From positions 744,001 through 808,000 of the forward strand of contig OZ249436.1 of NCBI GenBank assembly GCA_965235115.1: a DNA stretch of 64,000 nt, written 5' to 3'. A program made the translations under genes and the position numbers. The notes below the pieces were generated by a model, which searched no databases, had not been told where the DNA came from, and saw nothing but the letters and a program-made list of their open reading frames with translations. This document shows, one piece after another, positions 25,360-26,715 of this stretch (positions within the stretch are counted from its first letter, which is position 1; each line of letters begins with the position of its first letter). Source of the DNA: Laetmonice hystrix. Its lineage: Eukaryota.

Positions 25360-26610
25360 GCTGTTTGCAGGTCCACCCCGAGAACTCCAACTGGTGGAGA
25401 GTGGTAGGCAAGGTTTATTCACCCTACTACCTGTCGCTGTTTGCAGGTCCACCCCGACAACTCCAACTGGTGGAGAGTGGTAGGCAAGGTTTATTCACCC
25501 TACTACCTGTCGCTGTTTGCAGGTCCACCCCGACAACTCCAACTGGTGGAGAGTGGTAGGCAAGGTTTATTCACCCTACTACCTGTCGCTGTTTGCAGGT
25601 CCACCCCGACAACTCCAACTGGTGGAGAGTGGTAGGCAAGGTTTATTCACCCTACTACCTGTCGCTGTTTGCAGGTCCACCCCGAGAACTCCAACTGGTG
25701 GAGAGTGGTAGGCAAGGTTTATTCACCCTACTACCTGTCGCTGTTTGCAGGTCCACCCCGACAACTCCAACTGGTGGAGAGTGGTAGGCAAGGTTTATTC
25801 ACCCTACTACCTGTCGCTGTTTGCAGGTCCACCCTGACAACTCCAACTGGTGGAGAGTGGTAGGCAAGGTTTATTCACCCTACTACCTGTCGCTGTTTGC
25901 AGGTCCACCCCGACAACTCCAACTGGTGGAGAGTGGTAGGCAAGGTTTATTCACCCTACTACCTGTCGCTGTTTGCAGGTCCACCCCGACAACTCCAACT
26001 GGTGGAGAGTGGTAGGCAAGGTTTATTCACCCTACTACCTGTCGCTGTTTGCAGGTCCACCCTGACAACTCCAACTGGTGGAGAGTGGTAGGCAAGGTTT
26101 ATTCACCCTACTACCTGTCGCTGTTTGCAGGTCCACCCCGACAACTCCAACTGGTGGAGAGTGGTAGGCAAGGTTTATTCACCCTACTACCTGTCGCTGT
26201 TTGCAGGTCCACCCCGACAACTCCAACTGGTGGAGAGTGGTAGGCAAGGTTTATTCACCCTACTACCTGTCGCTGTTTGCAGGTCCACCCTGACAACTCC
26301 AACTGGTGGAGAGTGGTAGGCAAGGTTTATTCACCCTACTACCTGTCGCTGTTTGCAGGTCCACCCCGACAACTCCAACTGGTGGAGAGTGGTAGGCAAG
26401 GTTTATTCACCCTACTACCTGTCGCTGTTTGCAGGTCCACCCCGACAACTCCAACTGGTGGAGAGTGGTAGGCAAGGTTTATTCACCCTACTACCTGTCG
26501 CTGTTTGCAGGTCCACCCCGACAACTCCAACTGGTGGAGAGTGGTAGGCAAGGTTTATTCACCCTACTACCTGTCGCTGTTTGCAGGTCCACCCCGACAA
26601 CTCCAACTGG
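25360..26610 (+). repeat. 76-bp tandem array spanning the exon 4 acceptor, 17 acceptor copies
   Basis: gctgtttgcag|gtccaccccgacaactccaactgg with the AG ending at 25370 + 76n up to 26586. Confidence 0.97.
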
Positions 26611-26715
26611 ACGTGTTTTGAACAGGACGCCAGTCTCGACATCAAGTCCTTCTTTGGGTTCGAGAGTACAGTCGAGAAGATTGCTATGAAACAATACACG
26701 GCCAACATCAAAAAG
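26587..26715 (+). CDS. SEC14L1: Coding exon 4 ([13 protein letters not shown]...TANIKK)
   Basis: ttgcag|GTC ... AAG|gtgagt; 129 nt; acceptor is the last copy of a 76-bp array. Confidence 0.93.

What the first reader, a model, noticed from the sequence alone, without database searches (positions are those of the whole stretch)
25360..26715. Exon 4 acceptor array parses as 16 in-frame 33-nt micro-exons separated by 43-nt GT-AG spacers
Seen: each 76-bp unit is tttgcag|GTC CAC CCC GAC AAC TCC AAC TGG TGG AGA GTG|gtaggcaagg...gtttgcag. That is a 33-nt phase 0-0 segment ([11 protein letters not shown]) behind a copy of the real acceptor, followed by GTAGGC, the same hexamer as the exon 5 donor. Reading through from a decoy acceptor gives a frameshift or stop, but splicing at GTAGGC would add 11 aa in frame. 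A 43-nt intron is probably too short for most animals, but skipping one unit gives 119 nt. Inference: a latent array of cassette micro-exons, a stepwise re-splicing path, or intron gain by tandem duplication caught in progress.
Basis: partly seen in the sequence, partly recalled or inferred. Interest (0 to 1): 0.75.

Follow-up and report, generated by a model that had tools for sequence, protein, structure and literature searches.

The report
Tandemly repeated splice acceptor ("mirage" minisatellite)
The end of an intron plus the first 24 bases of the next exon of a conserved lipid-transfer gene has been copied 16 extra times in tandem, a kind of repeat already described in lancelets, and nothing yet shows that the extra copies are used as tiny exons.

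Summary
There are 17 acceptor copies at exact 76-nt spacing (25371..26587). The first 16 are each followed by an open 33-nt segment and GTAGGC.

The gene is an intact, single-copy SEC14L1/5-like gene of a lophotrochozoan. The unit is the last 52 nt of its 12.6-kb intron 3 plus the first 24 nt of exon 4.

This fits the "mirage" minisatellites of amphioxus, which are tandem copies of intron-exon boundaries that reportedly leave splicing undisturbed (PMC3087553, PMC3902484). Human F7 has a donor-side counterpart (PMC1557585).

It is not a special case here. 5 of this gene's 25 exon boundaries carry tandem decoys (17, 2, 51, 6 and 43 copies), and arrays fill 72% of its intron bases.

The micro-exon reading is untested and looks unlikely:
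- The GTAGGC donor scores below all 13 real donors.
- A 43-nt intron compares with 205 nt for the shortest real one.
- 0 of 231 fetched homologues carry the insert.
- The junction needed for re-splicing is not donor-like.

No RNA run was listed, so use of the copies remains open. Verdict: a new member of a known kind, of moderate interest.

The parts
13845..13976 (+). Exon 3 of the SEC14L1/5-like gene (ends TACTCG, donor GTAGGT)
   Evidence: tblastn with six homologues. The boundaries were fixed by frame, and the joined exons read 688 open codons.
13977..26586 (+). Intron 3, 12,610 nt and mostly minisatellites. Its last 1.2 kb is the 76-bp array.
25360..26610 (+). 76-bp minisatellite. Each unit is the last 52 nt of intron 3 plus the first 24 nt of exon 4. 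It holds 16 decoy acceptors and the authentic one.
   Evidence: TRF gives 16.5 copies at 99%. There are 17 acceptor copies at exact 76-nt spacing. The unit and its inner 32-nt piece occur nowhere else in the 627-Mb genome.
25346..25394 (+). First copy of the unit. It is atypical: only 14 nt upstream of the exon-like part match the unit. The flank bases cagtggtagagtgg may be a remnant of the unit's ctggtggagagtgg, with 32 nt missing (inference).
   Evidence: Unit table. The local alignment finds only GTGGCTGTTTGCAG against GTCGCTGTTTGCAG. The remnant reading is by eye.
25371..25403 (+). First of 16 open 33-nt segments (VHPENSNWWRV here, [11 protein letters not shown] in most copies). The others start at 25371 + 76k and the last is 26511-26543.
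26544..26586 (+). Last 43-nt spacer (GTAGGC...TTTGCAG). It holds the likely branch site (ttattcAc, 26 nt before the exon), the pyrimidine tract and the authentic AG. Identical spacers start at 25404 + 76k.
   Evidence: Sequence. The branch-site assignment is by eye against the YTNAY consensus, which is recalled.
26587..26715 (+). Authentic exon 4 (129 nt, 43 codons, part of the PRELI domain), donor AAG|GTGAGT
   Evidence: Pfam PF04707, E 1.7e-13. It is 88-93% identical to homologues.
26679..26856 (+). Second boundary duplication. The unit is the last 37 nt of exon 4 plus 62 nt of intron 4 (99 bp, 26679-26777), followed by a degenerate 79-nt copy with its own AAG|GTGAGT.
   Evidence: Sequence and 2 probe copies. 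The run contigs hold a perfect 99-bp tandem junction, 26777->26679, that is absent from the window.
53781..57018 (+). 63-bp array copying the last 26-29 nt of exon 7 plus its donor AGG|GTAAGT, 51-52 copies
57817..58692 (+). 116-bp array whose unit repeats the exon 8 end and donor (AACAT|GTAAGT), 6 copies by probe
60493..62406 (+). 35-bp array copying the last 5 nt of exon 10 plus its donor TAT|GTAAGT. The 14-mer probe finds 43 copies. TRF lists periods of 35, 70 and 105 bp over this span (27.2 copies at period 70), which is about 54 units of 35 bp by my arithmetic.

Best explanation
This is a 'mirage'-type minisatellite. A 76-bp segment spanning the intron 3/exon 4 boundary of a SEC14L1/5-like gene (52 intron bases with branch site, pyrimidine tract and AG, plus 24 exon bases) was duplicated in tandem, between two TGG triplets 76 nt apart. 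It then expanded to 16 extra copies, partly in three-unit blocks. The surrounding region is 65% minisatellite.

All extra copies lie upstream of the one copy that continues into the rest of exon 4, so they are part of intron 3. The working mRNA is most likely made by joining exon 3 to the last acceptor.

The 33-nt in-frame 'micro-exons' are a by-product. Their first 8 codons are copied exon. The GTAGGC is a weak donor-like motif that already sat in the intron, 42-43 nt before the acceptor. Any read-through use of a decoy acceptor gives a premature stop and would probably be removed by nonsense-mediated decay.

Shown: the structure, its uniqueness in the genome, the intact single-copy gene, and the consequences for the reading frame. 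Inferred: the mechanism of origin, and that the decoys are largely unused.
For: - Structure: 17 acceptor copies at exact 76-nt spacing, with copies 2-17 identical over -52..-1.
- Block expansion: the +9 C>T variant sits in copies 7, 10 and 13, which points to 228-bp blocks.
- Uniqueness: the unit and its inner 32-nt piece occur only in this array in the 627-Mb genome, with 16 matches each and 0 for the control pattern.
- Gene state: 688 open codons over 13 exons, 68-74% identical to full-length homologues. The last exon lies just beyond the window. There is no second copy; other matches are 20-39% identical.
- Reading frame: all 16 decoy read-throughs hit a stop.
- Weak donor: the decoy donor scores 3.56 bits against 4.97-10.46 bits for the 13 real donors.
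- Same phenomenon elsewhere in the gene: 5 of 25 boundaries have tandem decoys, with 17, 2, 51, 6 and 43 copies.
- Arrays avoid exons: they cover 35,365 of 48,861 intron bases but only 58 of 2,066 exon bases. Arrays therefore survive only where the exon-adjacent copy stays intact.
- Lineage-specific: 50 of 51 related loci have a single acceptor copy.
- Precedent (passages read): amphioxus mirages in globin, Adh3, TnC and PGBD5 duplicate splice sites without aberrant mRNAs (PMC3087553, PMC3902484).
- Precedent (abstract read): in human F7 only the exon-adjacent copy of a repeated donor is used (PMC1557585).
Against: - No transcript evidence of any kind exists for this organism.
- The 16 decoy acceptors are identical to the real one over -52..+24 (copy 1 only over about -14). 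Nothing in the repeated sequence explains why they would be ignored.
- GTAGG[T/C] is a normal donor type in this gene (4 of 13 real donors).
- An 'exon' running from acceptor k to the donor of unit k+1 would be 109 nt, a normal exon size. Cryptic use is therefore mechanistically plausible.
- Classical experiments with duplicated sites are recalled to favour the acceptor nearest the donor. I did not check this.
- The first copy lacks 32 nt, so the simple one-step duplication model does not explain the left end.
- A 3-nt microhomology is weak evidence for the proposed mechanism.
Confidence: 0.72

Rival explanations
1. The units are used as in-frame cassette micro-exons. Exon 3 joins a decoy acceptor, and the GTAGGC donor then joins a later acceptor, by skipping units or going straight to the last one. 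This adds one or more 11-residue [11 protein letters not shown] blocks and gives a 33-nt ladder of isoforms.
For: The parse is exact in all 16 units. Any number of segments stays open and in frame. The acceptor is a copy of a working one. GTAGGC is also the hexamer of the real exon 5 donor, and GTAGG[T/C] occurs in 4 of 13 real donors.
Against: - The decoy donor scores below all 13 real donors, and 81 of 933 non-array intronic GT sites score as well or better.
- 33 nt is in the micro-exon range, which the literature calls hard for the splicing machinery (abstracts listed).
- A 43-nt intron has its best branch site only 16 nt after the donor. The shortest real intron here is 205 nt.
- 0 of 231 fetched homologues carry such an insert.
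- The other four boundary arrays in this gene have no such parse.
- The insert would duplicate a conserved strand-turn motif inside the PRELI domain.
Confidence: 0.07
2. The decoy sites are engaged often enough to matter, but unproductively. They give read-through or 109-nt cryptic exons with premature stops, or they act as 'decoy exons' that hold intron 3 unspliced. The array would then lower SEC14L output in proportion to its copy number.
For: There are 16 acceptors identical to the real one, each with a donor-like site 33 nt and 109 nt downstream. All such products carry stops. Decoy exons that promote intron retention in long introns are described in human cells (PMC6097662, PMC7373989; search listing and the start of each abstract only). 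At least the neighbouring 99-bp array differs between the window and the run contigs.
Against: No RNA data exist. Amphioxus mirages and the F7 repeat are reported not to disturb splicing. The gene is single-copy and highly conserved, so a strong loss of output should be selected against. The unit has no special RNA fold (z = -0.02).
Confidence: 0.18
3. The array, or its copy number, is an assembly artefact.
For: Near-perfect tandem repeats are hard to assemble. In the run contigs, the word depth of the unit is only 4.6-9.1 times that of the flanking contigs, and the tool warns that depth is not copy number.
Against: The contigs of three runs hold a circular 106-nt piece (76 + 30) and the flank-to-array junction. 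The variant pattern along the array is ordered. Dozens of similar arrays fill the window.
Confidence: 0.03

Closest known systems
'Mirage' minisatellites of amphioxus (Adh3, globins BflGb6/BflGb9, troponin C, PGBD5)
   Same: Both are tandem, minisatellite-like duplications of an intron-exon boundary that include the splice signal. BflGb6 also copies the 3' end of an intron plus the 5' part of the next exon. Both acceptor-side and donor-side forms exist. Repeat units are nearly identical. The cited papers also proposed a model of intron gain from mirages (PMC3087553, passages read; PMC3902484, passage read).
   Different: The host here is a lophotrochozoan, not a cephalochordate; its best full-length matches are gastropods at 72-74%. 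Copy numbers are much higher: 17, 51-52 and 43 or more, against 3-6 units in BflGb6. One gene carries five such arrays. The amphioxus cases have RT-PCR evidence of normal splicing, and this one has no RNA evidence. The founding paper (Canestro et al. 2002, PMC117041) was not held, so the definition comes from the citing papers.
Human F7 intron 7 37-bp minisatellite, whose first unit spans the exon 7 donor
   Same: A minisatellite repeats an authentic splice site, so identical pseudo-sites follow the real one and only the exon-adjacent copy is used (abstract of PMC1557585). This is directly comparable to the exon 7, 8 and 10 donor arrays in this gene.
   Different: F7 is a donor-side case in a mammal and has been tested with 50 constructs. 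The finding here is acceptor-side and untested.
Intron gain by tandem duplication of an AGGT-containing exon segment (Rogers model)
   Same: A tandem duplication places a donor-like and an acceptor-like site in series, so that part of the repeat could be spliced out.
   Different: Here the duplicated acceptor belongs to an old intron: 48 of 51 related loci have AG at the same position. The copies lie in the intron, not in the exon. No extra coding sequence is seen in any homologue. The model itself is cited from PMC3087553.
Decoy exons that promote intron retention (human SF3B1, OGT)
   Same: They are unproductive acceptor-donor pairs inside a long intron.
   Different: The known decoys are single and conserved, and they have been shown to act. 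Here there are 16 young, identical copies with no functional data. I saw only the search listing and the start of each abstract.

Membership tests
Mirage minisatellite | Head-to-tail tandem array of near-identical units of minisatellite size | tested here: met
   Period 76, 16.5 copies, 99% matches, with exact 76-nt spacing.
Mirage minisatellite | The unit spans a real intron-exon boundary and includes the splice signal | tested here: met
   The unit is 52 intron bases with the AG plus the first 24 bases of exon 4. Exon 4 is confirmed by Pfam PRELI, by tblastn and by the open joined frame.
Mirage minisatellite | The authentic copy is the one continuous with the rest of the exon, and the extra copies fall in the intron | tested here: met
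   Only copy 17 continues ACGTGT... into exon 4. Only that acceptor gives an open frame.
Mirage minisatellite | Regular splicing is not disturbed, and the mRNA uses only the authentic site | not testable with these tools
   No RNA run was listed, and the three runs that were laid are DNA contigs.
Mirage minisatellite | Length instability or allelic variation | tested here: inconclusive
   The contigs cannot count 76-bp units. For the neighbouring 99-bp exon 4 donor repeat, the contigs hold a perfect tandem junction that is absent from the window.
Cassette micro-exon | A length that keeps the frame, with no stop | tested here: met
   33 nt, and 1, 2, 3 or 16 copies give 0 stops.
Cassette micro-exon | Competent splice sites on both sides and flanking introns of workable length | tested here: inconclusive
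   The acceptor is identical to the real one. The donor scores 3.56 bits, below all 13 real donors. The spacer is 43 nt, against a shortest real intron of 205 nt. The donor matrix rests on only 13 sites.
Cassette micro-exon | Seen in transcripts, or conserved in orthologues | tested here: not met
   0 of 231 fetched homologues have the insert. 50 of 51 related loci have one acceptor copy. Transcripts of this organism are not available.
Recursive (stepwise) splicing site | After the first step, the junction regenerates a usable donor | tested here: not met
   TCG|GTCCAC scores -3.62 bits on the gene's donor matrix.
Intron gain by tandem duplication | A new intron position, with both exon copies kept in the mRNA | tested here: not met
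   The intron position is shared by 48 of 51 related loci, and homologues show no duplicated segment.

The most novel reading that the evidence does not exclude
The repeated units are not inert. In this animal the splicing machinery meets 17 identical acceptors, and 51 and 43 identical strong donors, in one essential gene. It resolves them by a positional rule in which the copy next to the exon body wins. Meanwhile a minority of transcripts use the latent 33-nt segments. That would give an in-frame ladder of 11-residue insertions in the PRELI domain, or a brake on expression that depends on copy number. Such an array could be a route to new exons or introns caught at an early stage.
Probability: 0.08. 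Interest if true: 0.65.

Novelty: new member of a known kind. Interest (0 to 1): 0.36.

Why it matters
In the papers found by my searches, boundary-spanning minisatellites are described for lancelets, and human F7 has a donor-side counterpart.

This gene extends the phenomenon to a lophotrochozoan and shows it in an extreme form. Five of its 25 exon boundaries are repeated up to about 50 times, yet the gene is single-copy, intact and strongly conserved.

That makes it a ready natural test of how a spliceosome chooses among identical sites: the last of 17 acceptors, and the first of 51 and of 43 donors. It also bears on whether such arrays can seed new exons or introns.

For genome annotation it is a practical warning. 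Gene predictors can pick a decoy copy and report frameshifted or extended exons.

Tried and rejected
- RNA evidence: the look-up of sequencing runs (kind rna, query 62650-63900) listed no RNA holder, only three runs of one sample kept as contigs. Expression and junction use could therefore not be examined.
- Contig depth: read laying on 26440-26900 gave DNA-like contigs. The unit's word depth is 4.6-9.1 times that of the flanking contigs, but the tool states that depth is not copy number, so I draw no copy-number conclusion.
- RNA structure that might hide the decoy sites: two units plus the exon start fold no better than shuffled sequence (z = -0.02; 103 of 200 shuffles fold at least as well).
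- A mobile-element source for the unit or its 32-nt inner piece: none was found, as both occur only in the array.
- Ancestral single-copy state in relatives: 51 of the 59 related metagenome loci were examined; I left out L088-L095 because their matches are cut by contig ends. Their intron ends do not align with this one, so the ancestry of the 52 intron bases and of the short first copy stays open.
- The first try of the search for related loci failed because the 43-residue query was too short. I repeated it with alignment A1.
- The founding mirage paper (PMC117041) is not held.
- Earlier notes of this scan near this place: none.
- My first exon coordinates were off by one base at exons 6, 9 and 13. 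I corrected them, and figures that depend on them are not used.
- The idea that the left flank cagtggtagagtgg is a remnant first copy is not recovered by the local alignment, which finds only 14 nt. I keep it only as a by-eye possibility.

Full report
**Observation.** The reported structure is real. Tandem Repeats Finder gives 25360..26610, period 76, 16.5 copies, 99% matches, no indels. A script finds 17 copies of tttgcag|GTCCACCC at exactly 76-nt spacing, with exon-like starts at 25371 + 76k. Copies 1-16 continue AACTGG TGGAGAGTG|GTAGGC. Copy 17 continues AACTGG ACGTGT..., which is the true exon 4. Copies 2-17 are identical over all 52 upstream bases. The only variants are +12 C>G (copies 1 and 5) and +9 C>T (copies 7, 10 and 13), and the latter spacing suggests growth in three-unit blocks.

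**Gene context.**
- The 129-nt exon at 26587-26715 matches the PRELI family (E 1.7e-13).
- It is 88-93% identical to the six SEC14-like protein 1/5 homologues used for tblastn, which come from annelids, molluscs, a tunicate and vertebrates.
- tblastn and frame checks place 13 exons in the window. Joined, they read 688 codons without a stop and are 68-74% identical over full length to named homologues. The best are gastropods at 72-74%, then Owenia at 70% and nemerteans at 69-70%. The host is therefore a lophotrochozoan.
- The last exon lies just beyond the window.
- The gene is single-copy in the 627-Mb assembly.
- The window sits 0.74-0.81 Mb from the start of a 73.8-Mb contig.
- Exon 3 ends TACTCG with donor GTAGGT. 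Intron 3 is 12,610 nt.

**Anatomy and origin.** In the phase TGGAGAGTGG...CAACTGG, the unit is the last 52 bases of intron 3 plus the first 24 bases of exon 4.
- The intron part holds a likely branch site (ttattcAc, assigned by eye), the pyrimidine tract and the AG.
- A TGG lies at both ends of the segment, which fits a microhomology-mediated tandem duplication. Three bases are weak evidence for that.
- The unit and its inner 32-nt piece occur nowhere else in the genome (16 matches each, all in the array). It is therefore a local duplication and not a mobile element.
- The first copy is atypical. Only 14 nt upstream of its exon-like part match the unit, so its history is unresolved.

**Consequences for the reading frame.**
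- Read-through from any of the 16 decoy acceptors meets a stop 29-85 codons after exon 3.
- A 109-nt cryptic exon (acceptor k to the donor of unit k+1) shifts the frame.
- Any number of 33-nt segments stays open and adds [11 protein letters not shown] blocks.

**Is the micro-exon path likely?**
- On a matrix built from this gene's 13 donors, GTG|GTAGGC scores 3.56 bits. That is below every real donor (4.97-10.46 bits, each scored with itself left out). 81 of 933 GT sites in non-array intron sequence score as well or better. The matrix is crude.
- GTAGG[T/C] is nonetheless a normal donor type here, present in 4 of 13 real donors.
- The 43-nt spacer puts the best branch site 16 nt after the donor. 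The gene's 12 introns are 205-22,875 nt long.
- The junction that re-splicing would need, TCG|GTCCAC, scores -3.62 bits.
- None of 231 fetched homologues has WWRV or a second HP[DE]N motif.
- Two units plus the exon start fold no better than shuffles (z = -0.02).
- From I estimate about a 1 in 10 chance that such an in-phase, open, donor-like site arises in 52 intron bases (inference).

**RNA data.** None could be had. The run search listed no RNA holder.

**What the DNA contigs show.** The three listed runs belong to one sample and are kept as contigs, which behave like DNA.
- They contain a circular 106-nt piece (76 + 30) and the left flank-to-array junction. This supports the array, though perhaps from the same individual as the assembly.
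- They also contain a 129-nt circular piece with a joint 26777->26679. That is a perfect tandem copy of a 99-bp unit made of the last 37 nt of exon 4 plus 62 nt of intron 4. The window instead has one full copy and one degenerate copy.

**The wider pattern in this gene.**
- Tandem arrays of period 10 or more cover 65% of the window.
- They cover 35,365 of 48,861 intron bases of the gene, but only 58 of 2,066 exon bases.
- TRF arrays span 3 of 25 exon boundaries.
- A 14-mer probe across each boundary, allowing one mismatch, finds tandem decoys at 5 of 25 boundaries (searches agree):

| Boundary | Copies |
|---|---|
| exon 4 acceptor | 17 |
| exon 4 donor | 2 |
| exon 7 donor | 51 |
| exon 8 donor | 6 |
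| exon 10 donor | 43 |

- The repeated exon 7 and exon 10 donors are perfect copies of the real ones, at 10.1 and 10.5 bits. Read-through at those two sites stops after 2 and 9 codons.
- Sixteen arbitrary 10-kb stretches elsewhere in the genome average about 17% array cover, with a range of 0-100% (the mean is my arithmetic). The genome is repeat-rich and this window lies at the high end.
- The 76-bp array is thus one instance of a general process that ignores exon borders. Such arrays survive only where the copy next to the exon body stays intact.

**Relatives.** 51 of 59 related loci from metagenome contigs were examined. Many of them are near-duplicates of each other.
- 48 of 51 have AG at the same position, so the intron is old.
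- 50 of 51 have single acceptor and donor copies.
- L063 has a degenerate second acceptor copy about 95 nt upstream and a 90-bp, 1.9-copy repeat across the donor of the same exon.
- The introns of L063 and the window do not align. Shared descent or recurrence therefore cannot be told apart.

**Literature.**
- Ebner et al. [quoted passage not shown] 2002. They state that RT-PCR suggests no interference with regular splicing, that length is unstable, and they offer a model of intron gain.
- PMC3902484 (passage read) adds PGBD5 and troponin C.
- The 2002 paper itself was not held.
- Borensztajn et al. 2006 (PMC1557585, abstract read) show that in human F7 a 37-bp minisatellite repeats the exon 7 donor and only the most upstream copy is used.
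- Decoy exons are known from PMC6097662 (search listing and start of abstract only).
- An earlier, unchecked note of this scan (e1-7275744) reports a mirage at the Scr homeobox exon of Owenia, with one transcript using the last copy.
- My searches found no paper describing mirages outside lancelets apart from the F7 case. That is not proof that none exists.

**Verdict.**
- The best reading is a mirage-type minisatellite whose extra acceptors are intronic decoys.
- The in-frame 33-nt parse is real but most likely incidental.
- Whether any decoy is used remains open for lack of RNA data.
- It is a new member of a known kind. It is notable for its copy numbers, for five such arrays in one conserved gene, and for its host lineage.

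Noticed in passing
window 53781-57018: A 63-bp array of 51-52 copies repeats the last 26-29 nt of exon 7 together with its perfect donor AGG|GTAAGT. Read-through stops after 2 codons. Only the first copy can give the conserved protein.
   Followed up: partly
window 60493-62406: A 35-bp array repeats the last 5 nt of exon 10 plus its donor TAT|GTAAGT. The probe finds 43 copies, and the TRF span corresponds to about 54 units of 35 bp (my arithmetic). Each unit also ends in cacagATAG, so acceptor-like sites are repeated too.
   Followed up: partly
window 57817-58692: A 116-bp array whose unit contains a copy of the exon 8 end and donor (AACAT|GTAAGT), with 6 probe copies. TRF starts it 20 nt after the exon, so it was missed by the overlap test.
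   Followed up: partly
window 26679-26856: The exon 4 donor boundary is duplicated as well: a 99-bp unit plus a degenerate 79-nt copy. Contigs of runs X1 and X3 hold a perfect tandem junction (26777->26679) and G instead of A at 26739, so another allele or an uncollapsed form has more perfect copies.
   Followed up: partly
L063 440-830 (metagenome contig): In an unnamed relative, the orthologous exon also has a degenerate upstream acceptor copy and a 90-bp, 1.9-copy repeat across its donor, at nearly the same exon position as in the window. Whether this is recurrence or shared descent is unresolved.
   Followed up: partly
window 29354-41074: A single 56-bp minisatellite of about 215 copies (11.7 kb) fills half of intron 4. 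Overall, 65% of the window and 72% of the gene's intron bases are tandem arrays, and the exons sit as small islands between them.
   Followed up: partly
window 20746-21682: A 44-bp array built from degenerate GGGTTA-like (telomere-type) motifs lies inside intron 3. The window is 0.74-0.81 Mb from the start of a 73.8-Mb contig.
   Followed up: no
window 49360-49590: A 125-bp, 1.8-copy repeat ends exactly at the AG of the exon 5 acceptor, so its unit contains ttgacag-like acceptor sequence. The 14-mer boundary probe found only one copy.
   Followed up: partly
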